NCBI GenBank assembly: GCA_964537895.1
Contig: CAZIDK010000001.1
Span: 51,229-115,228, forward strand
DNA length: 64,000 nucleotides
Source: an uncultured Gammaproteobacteria bacterium
GTDB taxonomy: Bacteria; Patescibacteriota; Microgenomatia; Levybacterales; UBA12049
Direction: 5' to 3'
In this document: positions 4,100 to 29,205 of the stretch, piece by piece
Numbering within the stretch: the stretch's first letter is position 1
Layout of the letters: each line of letters opens with the position of its first letter
Made by a program: the position numbers and the translations under genes
Notes under the pieces: generated by a model
The model's database searches: none
The model's input: the letters and a program-made list of their open reading frames with translations, nothing else
Told to the model about the DNA's origin: nothing

Positions 4100-4768
4100 A
4101 TGACAGAGGACGGCAGAAGATCATCATTTGATGAATTAAGAGCTATCGTTGGATCAAAGCCGGTACTAACCGGCGAATTTAGAGTAGCCCCTCGTATTAC
4201 AGACATTGAAGCCGTATTCCCTACTGCTAGAATGAATGAAGATACTGATGAAGCTTTGGCAGACCAAGCAAGAACAGCTTATGACGATCAACTTGAAAAA
4301 CACGTTAAGGAAAAAGGAAATACTGAACTTTTAGGAAAGCTTGCCAGGTTAAATTTTATAAGAGGATCTCTTGGGTATGGCGACCATAGACTAGCCAGAC
4401 ACCTAAGGATTACCACAACCGAGAAGGATCGGAAAGGCGACCATAGACTGGCTCAGTATCTAGGCATTACCACTAATCAAGTTCAAAGAGGCGACCTACG
4501 AGGACGCCGGAAAAAAGAGGTTGGTAGATTTGAAGAAAGGTTTAATGGTTTCTTTGCGCTTTCAAGTATCTTAGCGGAATCAGTAGAGGATGTTATAGAT
4601 AGACGAATCGCTCTTGAAACACCGAATGGTAAATTAAGTAGCGTAAGCGTTAGCGATGCTATAAAAGCAGGCTATATTAATATTGCAGTTGCCATTGCTC
4701 TTGAGGCGGTTAGACATAATGAGTCATCGGGGGATAATCAGCGAGTACCTGAACCACCTCTTGAATAA
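4100..4768 (+). CDS. Hypothetical protein with an internal imperfect direct repeat (GDHRLA-x-L-x-ITT twice)
   Basis: 669-nt ORF behind a near-consensus promoter. GC is visibly higher than in neighbouring genes. No recognisable domain. DNA repeat units at about 4379-4420 and 4436-4478. Confidence 0.45.
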   Translation: MTEDGRRSSFDELRAIVGSKPVLTGEFRVAPRITDIEAVFPTARMNEDTDEALADQARTAYDDQLEKHVKEKGNTELLGKLARLNFIRGSLGYGDHRLARHLRITTTEKDRKGDHRLAQYLGITTNQVQRGDLRGRRKKEVGRFEERFNGFFALSSILAESVEDVIDRRIALETPNGKLSSVSVSDAIKAGYINIAVAIALEAVRHNESSGDNQRVPEPPLE

Positions 4769-21918: not shown

Positions 21919-21944
21919 GTTTAGTTTCTATATCATATATTAAT
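21919..21944. promoter_or_regulatory. 26-bp perfect palindrome TATATCATATATTAATATATGATATA
   Basis: Self-complementary over all 26 nt. Lies between the promoter of 21509-21859 and the 3' end of 22041-22769, so it could be an operator or a cruciform. Confidence 0.5.
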
Positions 21945-22040
21945 ATATGATATAACGGACGCATTACCGGAGCTGGATACTAAGCTTAGTAAGCTTAAAA
22001 GTCAGCGGGAGAATTTAAATTGGGCTAAGAAGTCAAATTA

Positions 22041-23409: not shown

Positions 23410-23616
23410 ATGCCAGATATAATTGAAACAAAACCAAACATCCTAGGCGGAATGCCAGTTATAAAAGGAACTAGGATTCCTATCGCGCGTGTTGTGGCAT
23501 TATATGTTCAAGGCTATAAGATAAAAGATTTCAAGAGAGATTATCCTTATCTCACAATTACAAAAGAGGATATAGCAAACATATTCTCCCATTATTCTCA
23601 CCTTGCATCAAAATAA
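23410..23616 (+). CDS. DUF433 family antitoxin-like protein
   Basis: GGMPVIKGTRIPIARVV matches the DUF433 core. TATAAT is 5 nt upstream of the ATG. Confidence 0.6.
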   Translation: MPDIIETKPNILGGMPVIKGTRIPIARVVALYVQGYKIKDFKRDYPYLTITKEDIANIFSHYSHLASK

Positions 23617-23962
23617 GAATACAAACAAAAAGCGTAAGTTTAGATTATTATTAGATTCTGCATTTGCTAAACCTGATCAATTTCCCAAGCTAGCTAAAAA
23701 GGCAAAGTTATTACATGTAGTTCATGATTTGGGATTATCTAAACAGGCTGCGGATATAGATATCTACCAAAAGGCACTTGAAGAAAACTGCTTCGTATTA
23801 ACAATTAACTTTAGGCATTTTAGGAAGTTTGTTGTTAGTGGTAAACCGGGAGTAATTGGAATAGATTCGCAGCTGTCTAATGACGAAATTGACTCAATTG
23901 TTGTAAAGTTTATCTCTGGGAAAAATCCTGATGACTTTCTAGGAAAAGCTATTAAAATTTAA
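23603..23962 (+). CDS. DUF5615 (PIN-like / Mut7-C RNase-like) toxin-like protein
   Basis: LLLDSAF...VVHDLGL...ADIDIYQKALEENCFVLTINFRHF...GVIGI pattern of DUF5615. Overlaps the DUF433 gene by 14 nt, a typical toxin-antitoxin arrangement. Confidence 0.55.
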   Translation: MHQNKNTNKKRKFRLLLDSAFAKPDQFPKLAKKAKLLHVVHDLGLSKQAADIDIYQKALEENCFVLTINFRHFRKFVVSGKPGVIGIDSQLSNDEIDSIVVKFISGKNPDDFLGKAIKI

Positions 23963-24045
23963 CTGCTTTCTACAATTTTTATTTCTTCCGGAGTGAGGGC
24001 TGAAAGATTAGTCCAAAAAACCGCAGAGGCTAAGGTTTTCCCGCC
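23959..24045 (-). pseudogene. Remnant 3' end of a DNA methyltransferase-like gene (ends ...LSALTPEEIKIVESS*)
   Basis: The minus-strand frame encodes the TaqI_C-like C-terminal tail (LTxEEIxIVE) seen in N6-adenine methyltransferases / type IIG enzymes, but no long ORF precedes it. The 21-mer ttctacaatttttatttcttc recurs at 26050-26070. Confidence 0.4.
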
Positions 24046-24099
24046 GGGTTGAGCGAAGCAAAATGGTGAGTGAAATCGAACCACTAAGAAGTCAAATTA
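24040..24099. repeat. Direct repeat flanking the toxin-antitoxin cassette, copy 2
   Basis: Matches 23174-23257 and ends with the same gaaccactaagaagtcaaatta motif. Confidence 0.7.
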
Positions 24100-24118: not shown

Positions 24119-24781
24119 TTATAGTTGTTCCGTTAAGAATCTTTGCACTCCTTCAAGCATAGATTTGACATCCTCTGTCTTGTATTCACTAAATTTACCA
24201 TGGTCAGCACTGTCTCTTATTGCTTTCCAGGCTTGGATTTGTTTCTGAAGCAATCGATTGTAAATTTCTTTGTCTGCTAACTTTGCATTAAGCGATCCAA
24301 TATCATCGCCTGATTTGACATCTATTGTGTGTTTTTGTGCAATTTGTCTTAAACCGTTTTCTAAAACAGCACCTACAAGAGAAGCAGCGGAGTCTTTATA
24401 ATTATTGTCCAAAAGATGTTTGGCCATCTGGATAAAATCAGTAAAAATCTCTGCGCTTACTAAATCCCTAACTTTCGTTAAATATCCAAGTTCCAGATCT
24501 TCCTTCAGCGCTTTAAGAATGCCTACACCGTGATCAACATCTCCCGGGAAGGCTGACTTAACTTCCTCAACAAAATTTTTATAATAAGGGCTGTTTTCTC
24601 CGCAAACCAACAGGATGAAGTTTTGTGCATTATTTTTCCACTCGTGAAACGAAGCAGTATTAACTCTGTCAGGAGCCACAGCATAAGCCGAACTGTTGCT
24701 ATAACGCGTAGAAGCAACGCTTTGTGCTTTTGTCAGAAGCTGTGTAGCGCGTTCAATAAGTTTTTCTGTTGTTGAGTTCAT
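24119..24781 (-). CDS. HEPN-like protein (Rx4H motif near the C-terminus)
   Basis: All-helical 220-aa protein with AIRDSADHGKF (R-x4-H), the HEPN RNase signature. Sits 20 nt downstream of the DUF1508 gene and has its own GAGGA Shine-Dalgarno. Confidence 0.4.
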   Translation of the reverse strand: MNSTTEKLIERATQLLTKAQSVASTRYSNSSAYAVAPDRVNTASFHEWKNNAQNFILLVCGENSPYYKNFVEEVKSAFPGDVDHGVGILKALKEDLELGYLTKVRDLVSAEIFTDFIQMAKHLLDNNYKDSAASLVGAVLENGLRQIAQKHTIDVKSGDDIGSLNAKLADKEIYNRLLQKQIQAWKAIRDSADHGKFSEYKTEDVKSMLEGVQRFLTEQL

Positions 24782-24801
24782 ATTTTAATTTCCTCTAAAA
24801 A

Positions 24802-25005
24802 TTATGTTTCTACAGGATAAGTTCTGTAAATATTTGCAGCCGCTGCATTAGCTATGACTAGATTCGCTGCATGAACTGCATCAGCCTCGTTTTCATAGGA
24901 TTCACTCCAGCAGATATCGTTTCCATTGGATGAAACAAATACAAAATAAATTTGCCCATCCCTATTCTTTCTTAGTTCAAATTTAAATTCTCCCATTTTT
25001 ACCAC
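24802..25005 (-). CDS. DUF1508 (YegP-like) single-domain protein
   Basis: FELRKNRDGQIYFVFVSSNGNDICWSESYENEADAVHAANLV matches the YegP/UPF0339 repeat unit. Confidence 0.55.
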   Translation of the reverse strand: MVKMGEFKFELRKNRDGQIYFVFVSSNGNDICWSESYENEADAVHAANLVIANAAAANIYRTYPVET

Positions 25006-25020
25006 CTGCCTTTTTCCCTG

Positions 25021-25058
25021 TTGACAAATAAAATTTGTTGTAATATTATTACAACACT
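25021..25058 (+). promoter_or_regulatory. XRE gene promoter (TTGACA-N17-TATTAT) overlapped by a 10/11-bp inverted repeat operator
   Basis: TTGACA at 25021-25026 and TATTAT at 25044-25049, with the ATG 9 nt later. Inverted-repeat arms TTGTTGTAATA (25035-25045) and TATTACAACAC (25047-25057) span the -10 box, which suggests autoregulation. Confidence 0.5.
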
Positions 25059-25457
25059 ATGAATAAAAGTCAAGTACCATTTAATCAAACCTTCGGAGAA
25101 TTTTTCAGACAAAAAAGAATTTCCTTAGACTTTACATTAAGATCTTTTTGCGAAAGGTATAATTATGACCCTGGTAATATCAGTAGACTTGAAAGAGACA
25201 TTCTCTCCCCAAGTGTAGATCAGCAAAAACTTGAGGGATATGCTGCAGCTTTGAAAATACCACGTGATAGCGAGGAGTGGACAATGTTTTTTGATTTAGC
25301 TCATACTGCAAAAGGTAAAATTCCCGAAGATATTCTAAGTGACCCAAAAGTTCTTTCAATTCTACCAGCTTTCTATAGAACAGCTAGGGGAGAAAAATTG
25401 GATAAAAAGAAAATAGACCAGTTAATTAAACTTCTTAATGAGAATAATAAAAAATAA
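25059..25457 (+). CDS. XRE-family helix-turn-helix transcriptional regulator
   Basis: HTH region with LRSFCERYNYDPGNISRLERD; 132 aa; TAATG stop/start overlap with the next gene. Confidence 0.65.
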   Translation: MNKSQVPFNQTFGEFFRQKRISLDFTLRSFCERYNYDPGNISRLERDILSPSVDQQKLEGYAAALKIPRDSEEWTMFFDLAHTAKGKIPEDILSDPKVLSILPAFYRTARGEKLDKKKIDQLIKLLNENNKK

Positions 25458-26044
25458 TGAAAGAACCAAGCTTGACCTATCAAGACGTAGCTAATGCTGC
25501 AAATAACTTTTTAAAAACTTACCATTCTTCTCTTAAATTACCAATTCCCATAGAAGAAATAGTTGAGCTTAAAATGAATATTGCTATAGTTGCAGTACCG
25601 GGAATTAAGAAGCTCTTGGGGATAGATGCATTTATAAGTTCTGATTTTACTCAGATTACTGTGGATGAAAACTCCCTACTTAAATTTACTAAAAGAACTA
25701 GATTTTCCATAGCACATGAAATAGGTCATTTGATATTGCATAAAGATTGGTACGAGAAATATGGTCCTAAAGACTTTGAAGATTATTTGACGTTTTACGA
25801 TCGCATAGATAATAAAGTATATAAATATATGGAGATTCAAGCTCATACATTTGCTGGATTGGTTTTAGTTCCATCCAGTCTATTATTCAATGAGCTTAAA
25901 ATCAGAATTGGTAAAATCCCACATCTAGAAATACCTGAGATTCTTATTCCAGTAGCTCAGGATTTATTAGAGATATTTGAAGTATCAGGAGAAGTAATGT
26001 TTAGACGATTGCAAAAAGAAAAAATAATAAAATCCAATTCTTAA
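25457..26044 (+). CDS. ImmA/IrrE family metallo-endopeptidase (COG2856)
   Basis: Contains HEIGHLILH (HExxH). Translationally coupled to the XRE gene, the classic XRE-ImmA arrangement. Confidence 0.7.
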   Translation: MKEPSLTYQDVANAANNFLKTYHSSLKLPIPIEEIVELKMNIAIVAVPGIKKLLGIDAFISSDFTQITVDENSLLKFTKRTRFSIAHEIGHLILHKDWYEKYGPKDFEDYLTFYDRIDNKVYKYMEIQAHTFAGLVLVPSSLLFNELKIRIGKIPHLEIPEILIPVAQDLLEIFEVSGEVMFRRLQKEKIIKSNS

Positions 26045-26185
26045 GAATTTTCTACAATTTTTATTTCTTCGGGGGTTAGTCCGTAAAGTTTGTAAACTTC
26101 TTCATCGATTTTTTTATCTATCTTTTCAATTTCAGCTTTTATCGAATTCCATTGATTAGAATTTTCTGAAGTAGCCAATATTTTT
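26041..26185 (-). pseudogene. Remnant 3' end of a DNA methyltransferase-like gene (ends ...IDEEVYKLYGLTPEEIKIVENS*)
   Basis: The minus-strand frame reads SENSNQWNSIKAEIEKIDKKIDEEVYKLYGLTPEEIKIVENS*, a TaqI_C-like C-terminal tail. Only about 45 codons, preceded by a stop. Shares ttctacaatttttatttcttc with 23968-23988. Confidence 0.45.
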
Positions 26186-26220
26186 TTTATTTAAAATCAA
26201 AATTTGATTATTTAAATCCA

Positions 26221-26940
26221 TTAAATACTATTGCTGATAATACCACTTTCTTTAAAACTAAAATATTCATCTGAAGTAACTATCAGATGATCAATTATTG
26301 AAATACCTACTAATTTACCTGCTTCTACAAGTCTATTTGTTGTAGATATATCTTCCTCTGATGGTTTGGAATCTCCTGATGGATGATTGTGAGAAATAAT
26401 AATTTGTGCGATATTTTCTTTTATGGCCTTTTTAAAAACTTCTCTGGGATGCACTAAGCTTGCATTTAAGGTACCAATGCTAATTTCTTCGTTTATTAAT
26501 TTATTTCGTGTATCAAAATACAAAATTGTAAAATGTTCTTCTTTTTTACTTCCTATTTTTGTTTGAAGATAGTCAGCAACTAATTTAGAAGAATTTAATA
26601 AAATTTTAGATGATATTTTTTCTTTGGAATATCGCTCAGAAATCGCTTTAAATAAAATTAACCCCAAAGCATTTGAACGACCAATTCCCTTAATTGCAAT
26701 TAATTCTATTATATCTGCATCCAATACTCCTTTGAGATTTTTGAACTTTTTAATAGCCTCTTTGGCTATTTGTTTGCAATCTTTACGCGGAGTACCCAAT
26801 GTCAACAATAATTCAACTATCTCGTAATCCAAAAATCCATTTAAACCAGAATCAATAAATTTTTCTCGGAGTCTTTTTCTATGCCCTTCGGAGTGATTTA
26901 TTTTTTTAATATTTGAATCAGAAATGCTTTTATTTTTCAT
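26221..26940 (-). CDS. RadC-like JAB/JAMM domain protein
   Basis: C-terminal HNHPSGDSKPSEEDISTTNRL matches the RadC JAMM metal-binding motif (HxHP...SxxD). N-terminal RPRERL-like GHRKRLREKF. Start placed at the ATG at 26940, overlapping the upstream gene stop by about 11 nt. Confidence 0.75.
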   Translation of the reverse strand: MKNKSISDSNIKKINHSEGHRKRLREKFIDSGLNGFLDYEIVELLLTLGTPRKDCKQIAKEAIKKFKNLKGVLDADIIELIAIKGIGRSNALGLILFKAISERYSKEKISSKILLNSSKLVADYLQTKIGSKKEEHFTILYFDTRNKLINEEISIGTLNASLVHPREVFKKAIKENIAQIIISHNHPSGDSKPSEEDISTTNRLVEAGKLVGISIIDHLIVTSDEYFSFKESGIISNSI

Positions 26941-28855
26941 TAGTCTCTTTATCGATATTAAATGAAGCTCCATTGGAATCATTATCGTATAAAGTAGAAC
27001 TTATTCTTTGATTACTTAAATGTTTTTCAAAATAACCTTGAGTTTCTGGATCAACTGAGTAAATATAACAACCTTTCATTCCTCTAGTCATGAGTGTTCG
27101 ATATGTGTTTTTAATAATCATATCTGCCATTCTTTTTGACTCTTCTGGATTTTCTTTAAGCCTTTTCTTTATTCCCTTGAATGACTGATCAGAAGATGCT
27201 CGTTTTGTTGCATCAGTAATAATCTTGCCATTTCGAACAACCATATCTGGACCAATTATTACTCCTACATAGTCCAACTCCAGCCCTTGAGAAGTATGTA
27301 TGCAGCCCACCTCACTTACAGAATCAGGATGAATTAACCACGATTGACCATGTAAATATAAATTCCAAGTCGCCTTATAATCATCAATCACGATATCCTT
27401 TAATTTAGCATTTTTCTTGCTTATCCATTTCCAACAATAACCTGCTAACAATCTTGATTTATTATTTTCTTGATTTAGGTCAATTATTTTTTTATGAAGA
27501 ATCGAAGGATTATCCATAACTTTAAAATCATAATTAATATCTTCTAATGATTCATTTGCTGTTTCTCTTATCTGTAATAAATTATCAATCCAGGCTAAGT
27601 AACCATCTGATCCATTACATCTAAACTGCGAAGCTAACTCTAGAGATGTGACTTTTGCTCCCAAGCTTTCTGCCCATTTTATAATTTCTGACTTTTTACC
27701 TATATCTTTCAATGTAACTCTTTGGTTCTCATCGATAAAAAAAACACAAAGCTTGGACACATTTATTAACTCTTTTATTTGATTTTCTCCTAAATGACTA
27801 AACAGTCCTGACTTGGCATTAAGTCTATGCGCCTCATCAACAATAAGTGAATCAAAAGTATTAGCTTCAATATCATAAAATGAACCAGACGAGCTAAATA
27901 AATTTGAGATACGAGTTTTTGTAAATTTACCACTGAGTTTCACTTGGTATACTTCACGAGGTGCTGAATTTTTTGTGACGTATTGCGTAACATTCCCTCT
28001 TTTCGTAAGCTCTGTTAATAAGTTTATTGCAACAATTGATTTACCAGTACCAGGACCTCCTTCGACTATCAGCACATTTTTATTACGCTCAGATGATTCT
28101 TCTGCTAGTTTAAGCGCAGTTTCATATACGATTTTTTGATCATCGATTAGTATGAATTCCTTGTTACCCTCAAGCATTGAAGCAAGACTATCAACTAATG
28201 CCTTTGATGGCCTAATTTTTCCATTTTCAATACTATACAAGATATTTGTTTTATCACCATATTTTACAAATCTTTTTATAAATTCTTGTAATTTTAAGGC
28301 ATCGGTTTTTAGAAAAGCAGGGGCCTTGTCTGTGTATTCCTTATAAAAAACATTGGTAATAATATCGTCTGCCTCGTAATTATGAAGATATGCGCAGGGA
28401 ACTAGAGATATGTTATCTGTTTGAACAGCACTATTAAAATCTTCTAATAATGTTGCATACGACCAGACTTGATATGATGGGTGGGGAACTTCTCCATAAA
28501 AATTTGTATTAAGAACCCCATCTTTTTCAGTCAAACTAACACCTTCACTCCATTGTTTCAACTCGACAATTACGGCTACTTTTCTGTTCTCATTATTTGT
28601 ACCGGTAATTATAAAATCTATACGTTTAGACGTTTGAGGAATTTTATATTCAATTGCAATACCAGCATCATCAGGAATACTCGAATCGTTAATAACATTA
28701 CTCATATAAGGCATGGACTTACGCCATGAGTTAATCTCGCTTTTACCTGTGGCGTGTCCCATCTCGCGTACAAATGAAGTAAGAATTTGTTGTTCTACCT
28801 GTCCAGACAAAACATCACTTAAAAACCCCTTTTTATTAGATGAATAAACGATCAT
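26930..28855 (-). CDS. Fusion protein: N-terminal PD-(D/E)xK nuclease-like domain plus DUF2075-type SF1-helicase-like P-loop ATPase
   Basis: N-terminus RIDFIITG...VAVIVELKQW (D...ELK). Walker A VEGGPGTGKS and Walker B LIVDEAHRL. The C-terminal CIHTSQGLELDYVGVII resembles the helicase 2B motif. 641 aa. Confidence 0.65.
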   Translation of the reverse strand: MIVYSSNKKGFLSDVLSGQVEQQILTSFVREMGHATGKSEINSWRKSMPYMSNVINDSSIPDDAGIAIEYKIPQTSKRIDFIITGTNNENRKVAVIVELKQWSEGVSLTEKDGVLNTNFYGEVPHPSYQVWSYATLLEDFNSAVQTDNISLVPCAYLHNYEADDIITNVFYKEYTDKAPAFLKTDALKLQEFIKRFVKYGDKTNILYSIENGKIRPSKALVDSLASMLEGNKEFILIDDQKIVYETALKLAEESSERNKNVLIVEGGPGTGKSIVAINLLTELTKRGNVTQYVTKNSAPREVYQVKLSGKFTKTRISNLFSSSGSFYDIEANTFDSLIVDEAHRLNAKSGLFSHLGENQIKELINVSKLCVFFIDENQRVTLKDIGKKSEIIKWAESLGAKVTSLELASQFRCNGSDGYLAWIDNLLQIRETANESLEDINYDFKVMDNPSILHKKIIDLNQENNKSRLLAGYCWKWISKKNAKLKDIVIDDYKATWNLYLHGQSWLIHPDSVSEVGCIHTSQGLELDYVGVIIGPDMVVRNGKIITDATKRASSDQSFKGIKKRLKENPEESKRMADMIIKNTYRTLMTRGMKGCYIYSVDPETQGYFEKHLSNQRISSTLYDNDSNGASFNIDKETNEK

Positions 28856-28857
28856 AA

Positions 28858-29205
28858 TTATAATTTGTTATATTTAGTGTGCTTTCCTTTTGCTTTTTTA
28901 ACAGGGTATTTCTTCTTATTTTCCTTCATTTTTTTATCGAAAGCTTTTAGTAAGTCTATGTTTAAATCGTGGCTCATTAACAAAGTCCAATACAAGACAT
29001 CGGAAAGTTCATCAGCAATTTCATTCTTATGTTTTTTAACATATTCATCCATTTCTTCTTTACTTTGCCAAAGAAAATGCTGTAAAACTTCAGAAGCCTC
29101 TAGGGAAAGCGCAATAGAAGAATCTTTTGGATTATGAAACTGCTTCCAATCTCTTGCGTTGCGATATTTAATTATAATATCTATTAAATTTTTGATATCC
29201 GACAT
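28858..29205 (-). CDS. MazG-like all-alpha nucleotide pyrophosphohydrolase
   Basis: RNARDWKQFHNPKD...ALSLEASEVLQHF...EIADELSDVLYW matches the MazG/YpjD NTP-PPase helix pattern. 115 aa; 2-nt gap to the downstream gene. A TAAAAT -10 lies 6 nt upstream of the ATG. Confidence 0.6.
   Translation of the reverse strand: MSDIKNLIDIIIKYRNARDWKQFHNPKDSSIALSLEASEVLQHFLWQSKEEMDEYVKKHKNEIADELSDVLYWTLLMSHDLNIDLLKAFDKKMKENKKKYPVKKAKGKHTKYNKL

What the first reader, a model, noticed from the sequence alone, without database searches (positions are those of the whole stretch)
24119..26044. Divergent module: DUF1508 (YegP-like) + HEPN-like (Rx4H) operon facing an XRE-ImmA pair with a palindromic operator
The DUF1508 and HEPN-like genes are minus-strand, 20 nt apart, and the second has its own GAGGA Shine-Dalgarno. 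They are transcribed divergently from a translationally coupled XRE repressor and ImmA/IrrE metalloprotease pair. The XRE promoter (TTGACA-N17-TATTAT) is spanned by a 10/11-bp inverted repeat centred on the -10 box. XRE/ImmA pairs are stress-cleavable switches of mobile elements, and HEPN RNases are typical toxin or abortive-infection effectors. DUF1508 has no assigned function, so it may act as a sensor or antitoxin partner here.
Basis: partly seen in the sequence, partly recalled or inferred. Interest (0 to 1): 0.65.

Follow-up and report, generated by a model that had tools for sequence, protein, structure and literature searches.

The report
Repressor-protease switch beside a HEPN gene
A portable repressor-plus-protease switch, probably stress-triggered, sits back-to-back with a predicted RNA-cutting defence gene and a small gene of unknown function in a candidate-phylum bacterium; this is an ordinary, one-off mix of known defence-island parts rather than a new two-gene system.

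Summary

In 103 other loci encoding this HEPN family, none has DUF1508, XRE or ImmA next to it. Forty lie directly beside restriction-modification genes and 16 between rluD and gltX. DNA homology to close relatives stops at the HEPN ORF edges.

The XRE-peptidase pair is a separate, conserved cassette in Patescibacteria (at least 421 protein clusters). Across 10 distinct sampled loci, the window included, its divergent cargo varies: HNH, HNH plus OLD nuclease, a restriction system, a Cas4-like gene, DUF1508. Every locus keeps the palindrome TGTTGTA-N7-TACAACA just upstream of the XRE start.

Most likely reading: a CapH/CapP- or ImmR/ImmA-type switch that induces DUF1508 and an RNase effector. 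Verdict: new member of a known kind, modest interest.

The parts
24119..24781 (-). 220-aa HEPN-domain protein. It has an N-terminal helical domain (about residues 1-105) and a C-terminal HEPN domain (about 115-217) with the motif R189-DSAD-H194. It is the predicted RNase effector.
24782..24801 (-). 20-nt spacer between DUF1508 and HEPN, with the Shine-Dalgarno sequence GAGGA at 24791-24795. No terminator is predicted, so the two genes are probably co-transcribed.
   Evidence: Sequence. No terminator-like site between the genes. The one promoter-like match here (24830-24801) would start transcription inside the Shine-Dalgarno sequence (my inference).
24802..24996 (-). 64-aa single-domain DUF1508 (YegP/UPF0339) protein, the first gene of the divergent cargo operon. 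AGGTGG lies 7 nt upstream of the ATG.
   Evidence: Pfam PF07411, E=3.2e-10. Matches PDB 2k7i (Atu0232) at 1.1e-6 and YegP (2k8e) at 1.6e-3. The 64-aa gene call is in the public copy. Only four close homologues were found.
25036..25056 (.). Perfect 10-1-10 palindrome TGTTGTAATA-T-TATTACAACA, the predicted operator of the XRE repressor. It covers the -10 boxes of both divergent promoters.
   Evidence: The arms GTTGTA/TACAAC are conserved in all 10 distinct loci of the cassette clade and in the viral locus L229. A more distant homologue (L232) has a different palindrome.
25021..25049 (+). Promoter of the XRE-ImmA operon: TTGACA, 17 nt, TATTAT.
   Evidence: 11 of 12 consensus positions. An 11-of-12 match sits at the equivalent position in 9 of 9 loci tested.
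25045..25073 (-). Candidate promoter for the DUF1508-HEPN cargo: TTGACT, 17 nt, TG-AATAAT. Its -35 lies in XRE codons 4-5 and its -10 lies inside the palindrome.
   Evidence: 10 of 12 positions. An equivalent site is present in 8 of 9 homologous loci. Only 24 nt separate the cargo ATG from the -35 of the XRE promoter, so the cargo promoter must overlap the cassette (inference).
25059..25457 (+). 132-aa XRE-type helix-turn-helix protein with a conserved C-terminal region (LPAFYRTxRG). It is the predicted repressor and the substrate of the peptidase.
   Evidence: HTH_3 0.0096 and HTH_31 0.021. HTH_31 matches 10 of 10 and HTH_3 matches 9 of 10 family members, best E 6.8e-5. PADLOC capH 0.0029. 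Always found upstream of the peptidase. dN/dS 0.06-0.07.
25457..26044 (+). 195-aa M78 (ImmA/IrrE/CapP-type) zinc metallopeptidase. H87-E88-xx-H91 and E126 are invariant. It has no GAF domain and no cysteine.
26041..26178 (-). 45-codon remnant of the C-terminus of a type IIG/ISP DNA methyltransferase (...YGLTPEEIKIVENS*), convergent with ImmA. The rest of the gene has been lost.
   Evidence: tblastn matches the C-termini of the 904-aa and 1045-aa methyltransferases of L029 and L015. In L244 a full-length MmeI/ISP methyltransferase ends 16 nt after ImmA; L105 has a 96-aa ORF at that position. The shared DNA runs to about 26066.
23967..24009 (-). Second short methyltransferase C-terminal scar (...LTPEEIKIVESS*), 35 nt downstream of HEPN. 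Together with 26049-26091 it forms a 43-nt direct repeat (81% identical, first 22 nt identical) that brackets the four genes.
   Evidence: Direct repeat D1. ORF 23959-24084. Alignment with the end of the L029 methyltransferase.

Best explanation
The locus is a mosaic inside a small chromosomal defence island of a Patescibacteria (CPR) genome. It has two independent components.

1. A conserved, portable regulatory cassette. It consists of an XRE repressor (132 aa), a translationally coupled M78 zinc peptidase (195 aa), and a back-to-back promoter pair whose -10 boxes lie inside a 21-bp palindrome.
2. A divergent cargo operon, here DUF1508 followed by a HEPN RNase.

Proposed mechanism:
- An XRE dimer sits on the palindrome and represses both its own operon and the cargo. 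This is inferred from geometry and conservation.
- A stress or infection signal activates the peptidase, which cleaves XRE. This is inferred by homology with ImmR/ImmA, DdrO/IrrE and CapH/CapP.
- DUF1508 and HEPN are then made. HEPN dimers cleave RNA through the Rx4H site and arrest growth or abort infection. This is inferred from the fold, the motif and the family's defence context.

The HEPN gene belongs to a large family of stand-alone proteins of about 220 aa. Elsewhere the family lies beside type I, type III and type IIG restriction-modification genes, and beside BREX or CBASS genes. Here only the ORF has been transplanted, between methyltransferase scars.

DUF1508 is not its dedicated partner. 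It is most likely an independently acquired small stress or nucleic-acid-binding protein that happens to share the inducible promoter.
For: Anatomy and domain assignments.

The cassette is a conserved unit:
- At least 421 ImmA protein clusters, most of the 120 listed being 195 aa and 59-92% identical.
- XRE is always upstream, overlapping or within a few bases.
- dN/dS is 0.04-0.09 for both genes.

The cargo varies and is often defence-like. Across 10 distinct loci, the window included:
- HNH_3 (L105)
- HNH_3-like gene plus an OLD-family nuclease (L244)
- a restriction-modification pair with an HsdR-like helicase (L245)
- DUF1508 (L106 and the window)
- a 55-aa gene plus DUF6485 plus a Cas4-like gene (L108)
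- unknown genes (L110, L249)
- none (L246, and its relative L248)

Operator and promoters:
- The operator is conserved in all 10 of these loci and in the viral L229. It is replaced by a different palindrome in the 40%-identical L232.
- The plus-strand promoter is conserved in 9 of 9 loci and the minus-strand promoter in 8 of 9.
- The cargo ATG is only 24 nt from the XRE -35 box.

HEPN family context in 103 other loci:
- 40 directly beside restriction-modification genes (MerR/HTH_17, type III Mod/Res, HsdM/HsdS, type IIG)
- 16 between rluD and gltX
- 3 beside Cap15
- 0 beside DUF1508

DNA homology to relatives is confined to the HEPN ORF. Methyltransferase scars lie on both sides.

Literature:
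- CapH/CapP regulates diverse immune operons by cleaving the repressor (10.1101/2022.04.27.489752; 10.64898/2026.05.16.725639).
- HEPN genes embedded in restriction-modification operons act as a second line of defence (PMC3710099).
- The DUF4145-type HEPN protein RAZR is a single-protein abortive-infection RNase (PMC13017515).
Against: - No experiment supports any step. Binding, cleavage, RNase activity and toxicity are all inferred.
- The HTH assignment of the window's XRE is below the Pfam cut-off, and no solved structure matches it by sequence.
- The peptidase lacks the GAF domain and the cysteine switch that couple CapP to ssDNA, so the activating signal is unknown.
- The minus-strand promoter is only a consensus match. 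Its -35 lies in conserved coding sequence, so its conservation may have another cause.
- L246 and its relative L248 have the cassette without a divergent gene.
- The arrangement is known from a single genome and could be a neutral recombination product.
- The context sample for the cassette is small: 10 distinct loci.
Confidence: 0.6

Rival explanations
1. One reading: DUF1508 and HEPN form a dedicated two-gene toxin-antitoxin or sensor-effector system, with DUF1508 neutralising or activating the HEPN RNase. XRE/ImmA would be that system's own switch.
For: - The two genes are 20 nt apart on the same strand with no terminator between them.
- In the closest HEPN relatives, the slot just upstream is also filled by a small gene, a 60-63-aa MerR/HTH_17 protein, overlapping or within 2 nt. 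A small upstream partner is therefore typical.
- DUF1508 has been proposed to bind single-stranded nucleic acid as a sensor domain in Menshen NsnA proteins (PMC12065111).
Against: - None of 103 other HEPN-family loci has DUF1508 adjacent.
- The family is often solo, for example on Acinetobacter and Serratia plasmids and in L003 and L012.
- The closest DUF1508 homologue whose context could be read (72% identical) follows a SMODS/AGS_C gene and precedes an unrelated gene.
- DNA homology ends exactly at the HEPN ORF, so the two genes do not travel together.
Confidence: 0.1
2. The adjacency has no functional meaning. The XRE-M78 pair is a self-contained selfish or toxin-antitoxin-like module (the Xre-COG2856 type), or a relic of a prophage or ICE immunity region. 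It regulates only itself. DUF1508 and HEPN are expressed on their own and landed here through recombination at methyltransferase 3' ends.
For: - Xre-COG2856 pairs have been treated as type II toxin-antitoxin candidates (e.g. PMC6929052, PMC10538038).
- The locus is visibly mosaic, with methyltransferase scars on both sides.
- L246 and its relative L248 have the cassette with no divergent gene.
- Distant homologues of the pair occur on viral contigs.
Against: - In 8 of 10 distinct loci a divergent gene starts 60-205 bp from the XRE start.
- In the window the spacing leaves no room for a cargo promoter outside the cassette.
- No integrase, excisionase or phage gene lies in the island.
- The CapH/CapP precedent shows that such pairs do regulate the neighbouring immune operon (10.1101/2022.04.27.489752).
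Confidence: 0.2
3. The HEPN protein is not a toxin or defence effector. It would be a housekeeping or accessory RNA-processing or regulatory protein, whose link with restriction-modification genes reflects regulation rather than abortive infection.
For: - A clade about 45% identical sits in a conserved position between a RluD-like pseudouridine synthase and glutamyl-tRNA synthetase in 16 loci.
- The family often occurs with no visible antitoxin.
- Purifying selection is very strong.
Against: - The catalytic Rx4H motif is invariant.
- Defence contexts dominate: restriction-modification, BREX, CBASS Cap15, plasmid toxin-antitoxin clusters.
- The related DUF4145-type HEPN protein RAZR is a solo latent RNase activated by phage proteins (PMC13017515). 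Lack of an antitoxin therefore does not argue against an effector role.
Confidence: 0.1

Closest known systems
CapH/CapP regulators of CBASS and other immune operons (Lau et al. 2022, 10.1101/2022.04.27.489752; Calloji et al. 2026, 10.64898/2026.05.16.725639)
   Different: The peptidase is 195 aa with no C-terminal GAF domain and no cysteine. It therefore lacks both the ssDNA groove and the cysteine switch that define CapP activation. The capH match is weak (0.0029). The cargo is DUF1508 plus HEPN, not CBASS. The host is a CPR bacterium.
ImmR/ImmA of ICEBs1 and prophages, and DdrO/IrrE of Deinococcus
   Different: There is no mobile-element context: no integrase or phage gene in the island and no tRNA gene in the window. 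It does not control a DNA-repair regulon. Sequence similarity of XRE to ImmR is not significant (E 0.63).
HEPN nucleases embedded in restriction-modification operons (PrrC/RloC, and the DUF4145-like, AbiU2 and AbiJ families; Anantharaman et al. 2013, PMC3710099)
   Same: The family to which the window's HEPN belongs lies between hsdM and hsdS, in type III operons, and after type IIG methyltransferases. It has the Rx4H motif.
   Different: It has no ABC-ATPase domain, so it is not PrrC or RloC. In the window no restriction-modification system is left, only scars, and the gene sits behind an XRE/M78 switch instead.
RAZR (PD-T7-4), a single-protein abortive-infection RNase with a DUF4145-type HEPN domain (PMC13017515)
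   Same: A stand-alone two-domain protein of about 200 aa with a C-terminal HEPN RNase domain and no antitoxin. Distant members of the window's family match DUF4145, and some plasmid homologues are annotated DUF4145.
   Different: The N-terminal domain is an all-helical bundle, not a Cys4 zinc finger. The window's protein matches Pfam HEPN PF05168, not DUF4145. It has no PADLOC hit.
HepT/MntA (HEPN-MNT) toxin-antitoxin systems
   Different: No MNT nucleotidyltransferase gene is adjacent in the window or in any of the 103 related loci. The protein also has an extra N-terminal domain of about 100 aa.
YegP/UPF0339 (DUF1508) stress-induced proteins
   Same: A single DUF1508 domain with sequence matches to Atu0232 and YegP structures.
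   Different: 64 aa with a single domain, whereas YegP has two. Its place as the first gene behind an XRE/M78 operator is seen only here and, with a protein only 23% identical, in L106.

Membership tests
HEPN superfamily | All-alpha HEPN fold | tested here: met
HEPN superfamily | Rx4-6H catalytic motif | tested here: met
   R189-DSAD-H194. Both residues are invariant in 22 of 22 aligned members.
HEPN superfamily | Profile match above the curated cut-off | tested here: met
   PF05168, 25.1 bits against 22. 19 of 22 members match at E<=0.1.
HEPN superfamily | RNase activity | not testable with these tools
   Needs biochemistry.
HEPN-MNT (HepT/MntA) toxin-antitoxin | Adjacent minimal nucleotidyltransferase antitoxin | tested here: not met
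   No such gene was seen in the window or among the neighbours in 103 related loci.
PrrC/RloC anticodon nucleases | N-terminal ABC-ATPase fused to HEPN | tested here: not met
   The protein is 220 aa and has no P-loop domain hit.
RAZR / DUF4145-type HEPN | DUF4145 profile match and N-terminal zinc finger | tested here: not met
   No DUF4145 hit for the window's protein. Only distant members match; P0382 is above the cut-off. The N-terminus is helical with a single cysteine. There is no PADLOC hit.
DpnII/MboI-NTD + DUF4145-like HEPN architecture (PMC3710099, Table 2) | N-terminal domain of about 100 aa, mostly helical, with a beta strand after helix 1 | not tested
   The model's secondary structure fits that description: H3-23, short strand residues, then helices. 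No direct comparison with DpnII or MboI was made, so this is only a lead.
DUF1508 / UPF0339 (YegP) | Profile match above the cut-off and similarity to solved members | tested here: met
   PF07411, 40.2 bits against 22. 2k7i at 1.1e-6 and 2k8e at 1.6e-3.
CapP | M78 zinc metallopeptidase domain with HEXXH | tested here: met
CapP | C-terminal GAF domain forming the ssDNA groove | tested here: not met
   The protein is 195 aa. Only 146 of CapP's 278 residues align. The region after residue 150 is three helices. The PADLOC match covers profile positions 4-123 of 242.
CapP | Autoinhibitory cysteine-switch loop | tested here: not met
   The protein contains no cysteine (translation).
CapP | ssDNA-stimulated cleavage of the partner repressor | not testable with these tools
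   Needs biochemistry.
CapH / ImmR / DdrO-type repressor | N-terminal XRE helix-turn-helix | tested here: inconclusive
   For the window's protein, HTH_3 is 0.0096 and HTH_31 is 0.021, both below cut-off. In the family, HTH_31 matches 10 of 10 and HTH_3 matches 9 of 10, best E 6.8e-5. capH scores 0.0029. There is no significant PDB sequence match.
CapH / ImmR / DdrO-type repressor | Encoded next to the peptidase, with a palindromic site in its own promoter | tested here: met
   TAATG overlap with the peptidase gene. The palindrome over the -10 box is conserved in all 10 distinct loci. Actual binding was not tested.
ImmR/ImmA of ICEs and prophages | Located in a mobile element beside integration or excision genes | tested here: not met
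   No integrase, excisionase or phage gene lies between 19 and 31 kb. The window has no tRNA gene. The HEPN protein has no match in the phage collection, and the ImmA protein has no close relative on viral contigs.

The most novel reading that the evidence does not exclude
The 132-aa XRE plus the GAF-less, cysteine-less 195-aa M78 peptidase, together with their built-in bidirectional promoter and operator, could be a CPR-specific 'plug-in' inducible expression cassette. It would move between defence genes by recombination at the conserved 3' ends of methyltransferase genes. DUF1508, predicted elsewhere to bind single-stranded nucleic acid, would supply in trans the nucleic-acid sensing that CapP and IrrE perform with their GAF domain. 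That would explain why two very different DUF1508 genes (23% identical) sit directly behind this operator in two of the 10 distinct loci sampled.
Probability: 0.1. Interest if true: 0.6.

Novelty: new member of a known kind. Interest (0 to 1): 0.3.

Why it matters
If the model is right, this adds a minimal repressor-protease switch from candidate-phylum bacteria to the known CapH/CapP, ImmR/ImmA and DdrO/IrrE class. The switch has no GAF domain and no cysteine switch. Its operator, TGTTGTA-N7-TACAACA, is clearly defined and could be tested directly by EMSA and reporter assays.

The work also shows that a large family of stand-alone HEPN proteins has no curated family model of its own. The family comprises about 4,400 clusters at 50% identity. 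It is mainly an accessory of restriction-modification systems.

The practical lesson for annotation is that gene adjacency in defence islands can be a one-off. The DUF1508-HEPN pair should not be propagated as a 'system'.

Tried and rejected
- DUF1508 as the cognate partner of HEPN: rejected by the survey of 103 loci and by the context of the DUF1508 homologue P0246.
- Remnants of the usual partners (MerR/HTH_17, type III Mod/Res, HsdM/HsdS) around the window's HEPN: tblastn of all neighbour proteins against the window found only the two methyltransferase C-terminal scars.
- The four-gene block as a transposed unit with a target-site duplication: rejected. The 43-nt flanking repeat is only 81% identical. 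Each copy is the conserved coding end of a different methyltransferase gene.
- The cassette as phage-borne: a single-protein scan of viral contigs found nothing. The profile scan found only relatives at 36% identity or less. One viral contig carries the operator with a 46%-identical XRE. The operator pattern scan of viral contigs otherwise gave chance matches.
- Statistical significance of the palindrome on its own: not significant, with 0.85 expected per window.
- Independent HEPN promoter at 24830-24801: unlikely, because its transcript would start inside the Shine-Dalgarno sequence.
- RNA genes in 19-31 kb: none in Rfam. tRNA genes as integration sites: none in the window.
- A restriction-modification system elsewhere in the window that could partner HEPN in trans: none among the 30 ORFs scanned with Pfam, 28 of them of 100 aa or more.
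- PADLOC, NCBIfam and PHROGs gave no hit for HEPN, and only PHROGs families of unknown function for DUF1508.
- A profile search of PDB sequences with the XRE family gave nothing significant.
Full report
**1. Observation**

- The 220-aa ORF at 24119-24781 (-) matches Pfam HEPN above the gathering score (E 2.1e-5).
- The ORF at 24802-25005 (-) matches DUF1508 (E 3.2e-10). Its likely start is the ATG at 24996, which gives 64 aa. AGGTGG lies 7 nt upstream, and this is also the gene call in the public copy of the contig.
- The ORF at 25457-26044 (+) matches Peptidase_M78 (E 1e-7).
- The ORF at 25059-25457 (+) matches HTH_3 and HTH_31 only weakly (0.0096 and 0.021).

The remaining details were read directly from the sequence and the promoter scan:
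- the 20-nt gap between DUF1508 and HEPN;
- the GAGGA Shine-Dalgarno sequence;
- the TAATG overlap of XRE and the peptidase gene;
- the TTGACA-17-TATTAT promoter (11 of 12 positions).

The inverted repeat is a perfect 10-1-10 palindrome at 25036-25056. On its own it is not improbable. About 0.85 palindromes of this quality are expected in a sequence of this size and composition.

**2. The HEPN protein**

An alignment of 22 homologues (52-86% identical to the window's protein) shows R189 and H194 invariant, which is a canonical Rx4H motif.
- The AF2 model is confident (pLDDT 89.5).
- 19 of 22 members match PF05168.
- The N-terminal 100 residues or so form a separate helical domain with its own invariant residues (F45, E47, W48, Y66, F70).

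An exhaustive profile search found 4,434 clusters at 50% identity (2,648 at E<=1e-10). Nearly all are 215-230 aa, so this is a large family of stand-alone two-domain proteins. Distant members score weakly against DUF4145, HEPN_RiboL-PSP and HEPN, so no curated Pfam family captures the family. Homologues 30-36% identical on Acinetobacter and Serratia plasmids are annotated 'HEPN domain-containing' or 'DUF4145' and sit alone among toxin-antitoxin genes. The phage collection has no match. dN/dS against close relatives is 0.03-0.06, so the window's copy is under constraint.

**3. The DUF1508-HEPN pair is not conserved**

I fetched 21 loci from species-representative genomes and 80 from metagenomes, plus two from direct look-ups. 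I searched all their ORFs with the window's four proteins. Apart from the window's own copy (L001), no locus has XRE or ImmA. Only L029 has a DUF1508 gene, and it lies 1.8 kb downstream on the opposite strand.

I clustered the immediate neighbours, annotated representatives with Pfam and tallied the contexts:

| Context of the HEPN gene | Loci (of 103) | Distinct HEPN sequences |
|---|---|---|
| Directly beside a restriction-modification gene | 40 | 31 |
| Between a RluD-like pseudouridine synthase and GltX | 16 | 16 |
| After the CBASS effector Cap15 | 3 | 1 |
| Unclassified | 36 | 36 |
| No usable flank | 8 | 8 |

The restriction-modification neighbours are a MerR/HTH_17 protein of 60-63 aa, type III Mod or Res, HsdM/HsdS, type IIG methyltransferases and R.HinP1I. 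One further locus (L014) lies beside what appear, from my reading of their sequences, to be BREX genes.

In the closest relatives (77-87% identical), the usual order is HTH_17, HEPN, then either Mod and Res or Res and a DNA methylase. A DNA alignment of the window with five close relatives shows that homology begins about 10 nt before the ATG and ends 2 nt after the stop. The ORF alone has been transplanted.

The window's DUF1508 has only four close homologues (71-78% identical). The one with a long contig follows a SMODS/AGS_C gene and precedes an unrelated small gene, not a HEPN gene.

**4. XRE and the peptidase form a portable cassette**

The peptidase has at least 421 homologous clusters. 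Most of the 120 listed are 195 aa and 59-92% identical, and the named ones come from Patescibacteria.

In every locus examined, a 130-134-aa XRE gene lies just upstream. It overlaps the peptidase gene or ends within a few bases of it, except in L248, where a stretch of unresolved sequence separates the two.

The gene divergent from XRE differs from locus to locus:
- HNH_3 (L105);
- an HNH_3-like gene plus an OLD-family nuclease (L244);
- an HsdR-like helicase plus a methyltransferase (L245);
- DUF1508 (L106, only 23% identical to the window's);
- a 55-aa gene plus DUF6485 plus a Cas4-like nuclease (L108);
- genes of unknown function (L110, L249);
- none (L246, and its relative L248).

All 10 distinct loci, the window included, carry TGTTGTA-N7-TACAACA 2-6 nt upstream of the XRE start. 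The centre of the palindrome varies while the arms do not. None of the 103 other HEPN-family loci has this motif. A 46%-identical XRE on a viral contig (L229) keeps the motif. A 40%-identical one (L232) has a different palindrome, GTGGTAT-N5-ATACCAC. That pattern is what a repressor and its operator are expected to show.

The plus-strand promoter scores 11 of 12 in 9 of 9 loci. A minus-strand promoter-like site is present in 8 of 9, with its -35 (TTGACT) in XRE codons 3-5 and its -10 (AATAAT) inside the palindrome. In the window only 24 nt separate the cargo ATG from the XRE -35 box. Any cargo promoter must therefore overlap the cassette and its operator. This is an inference from geometry.

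**5. Which known regulator does it resemble?**

Only 146 of CapP's 278 residues align, and the protein ends after three more helices. It has no GAF domain and contains no cysteine. It therefore lacks the two elements that couple CapP to single-stranded DNA (10.64898/2026.05.16.725639). In size it is closer to ImmA.

It should be filed in the ImmA/IrrE/CapP (M78, COG2856) class, not as CapP in the strict sense. Its activating signal is unknown.

The XRE assignment rests on four points:
- weak but consistent HTH profile hits across the family (HTH_31 in 10 of 10 members, HTH_3 best E 6.8e-5);
- the capH hit (0.0029);
- the gene's position upstream of the peptidase gene;
- the conserved operator.

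PDB sequence searches with XRE gave nothing significant.

**6. Surroundings**

The window is chromosomal. It carries rpoB/rpoC, fusA, alaS, ftsK, and genes for RNase J and PNPase.

The stretch from about 19 to 31 kb is a small variable island. It contains:
- a GNAT acetyltransferase gene;
- DUF5674;
- SNase-Excalibur;
- a zincin-like peptidase gene;
- an alpha/beta hydrolase gene;
- DUF5678;
- a DUF433/DUF5615 pair;
- the four genes under study;
- a MazG-like, SLFN/DUF2075 helicase and RadC operon;
- a beta-lactamase-family gene.

GC content falls to 0.26-0.34 between 25.6 and 29 kb, against 0.37 for the whole window.

The four genes are bracketed by a 43-nt direct repeat (81% identical). Each copy is the last few codons (...LTPEEIKIVE.S*) of a methyltransferase gene.
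- The right-hand scar (26041-26178) matches the C-termini of the type IIG enzymes of L029 and L015. In L244 a full-length MmeI/ISP methyltransferase ends 16 nt after ImmA at the corresponding position.
- The left-hand scar resembles the end of the L029 methyltransferase.

The locus therefore looks like the product of deletion and recombination at conserved methyltransferase 3' ends. No restriction-modification system was found among the window ORFs that were scanned.

**7. Mechanism and confidence**

Best explanation (confidence 0.6): XRE represses both divergent promoters from the palindrome. The peptidase cleaves XRE on a stress or infection signal. DUF1508 and the HEPN RNase are then expressed, and the RNase arrests growth or aborts infection.

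Shown here: the domain identities, the catalytic motifs, the unity of the cassette and the conservation of its operator, the variability of the cargo, and the mosaic boundaries.

Inferred: DNA binding, cleavage, the nature of the signal, co-transcription, and RNase activity or toxicity.

Precedents:
- CapH/CapP, ImmR/ImmA and DdrO/IrrE (10.1101/2022.04.27.489752; 10.64898/2026.05.16.725639);
- HEPN genes embedded in restriction-modification operons as a second line of defence (PMC3710099);
- the solo DUF4145-type HEPN RNase RAZR (PMC13017515).

DUF1508 proteins are stress-induced and form dimers (10.1101/2024.11.21.623966). They have been predicted to bind single-stranded nucleic acids (PMC12065111). 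The role of DUF1508 here remains open.

**8. Verdict**

This is a new member of a known kind and of modest interest (0.3). The most useful products are the defined operator of a widespread CPR regulatory cassette and the recognition that this HEPN family is mainly an accessory of restriction-modification systems.

Noticed in passing
window 26221-29205 (-): An apparent three-gene operon: a MazG-like gene (28858-29205), a Schlafen-group-3/DUF2075 helicase gene (26930-28855; PADLOC PDC-S41 3.7e-22, with AbiO and Nhi weaker), and RadC (26221-26982, overlapping the helicase gene by 53 nt). It may be a separate defence system next to the studied module.
   Followed up: partly
window 23410-23962 (+): A DUF433 (68 aa) and DUF5615 (119 aa) gene pair overlapping by 14 nt. 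It looks like a toxin-antitoxin pair and lies directly downstream of the HEPN gene on the other strand.
   Followed up: no
window 23967-24009 and 26049-26091: A 43-nt direct repeat whose first 22 nt are identical. Both copies encode the conserved '...LTPEEIKIVE' end of DNA methyltransferases. This conserved gene end may act as a recombination hot spot for shuffling defence genes.
   Followed up: partly
window 21929-21954: A perfect 26-bp AT-rich palindrome, TATATCATATATTAATATATGATATA, in the intergenic region between the alpha/beta hydrolase and zincin-like genes. It is the longest perfect palindrome in the window.
   Followed up: no
L021, L069, L073, L082, L084, L085, L096-L098, L101-L104 and others: A clade of HEPN homologues (about 45% identical) holds a conserved position between a RluD-like pseudouridine synthase gene and the glutamyl-tRNA synthetase gene in 16 loci. 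A housekeeping, tRNA-related neighbourhood is unexpected for a defence-type RNase.
   Followed up: partly
L232 about 4540-4560; L229 10748-10766 and about 40 nt upstream of it: A 40%-identical XRE has a different palindrome (GTGGTAT-N5-ATACCAC) at the same place. The viral L229 has two copies of the TGTTGTA-type site. This looks like co-variation between repressor and operator.
   Followed up: partly
L106 2396-3300: About 900 bp with no convincing ORF lies between the DUF1508 gene behind the XRE-ImmA cassette and a gene for a 175-aa protein that I take, from memory, to resemble RhuM. It could be a decayed gene or an RNA gene.
   Followed up: no
L013, L047, L048 (about 4360-6311 in L048): The HEPN homologue follows a Cap15-type CBASS effector gene and overlaps it by 4 nt. 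It precedes a DUF5677-like gene. This suggests HEPN as an add-on to a CBASS operon.
   Followed up: no
window 25600-29000: GC content drops to 0.26-0.34, against 0.37 for the whole window. This fits recent horizontal acquisition of the ImmA to MazG segment.
   Followed up: no
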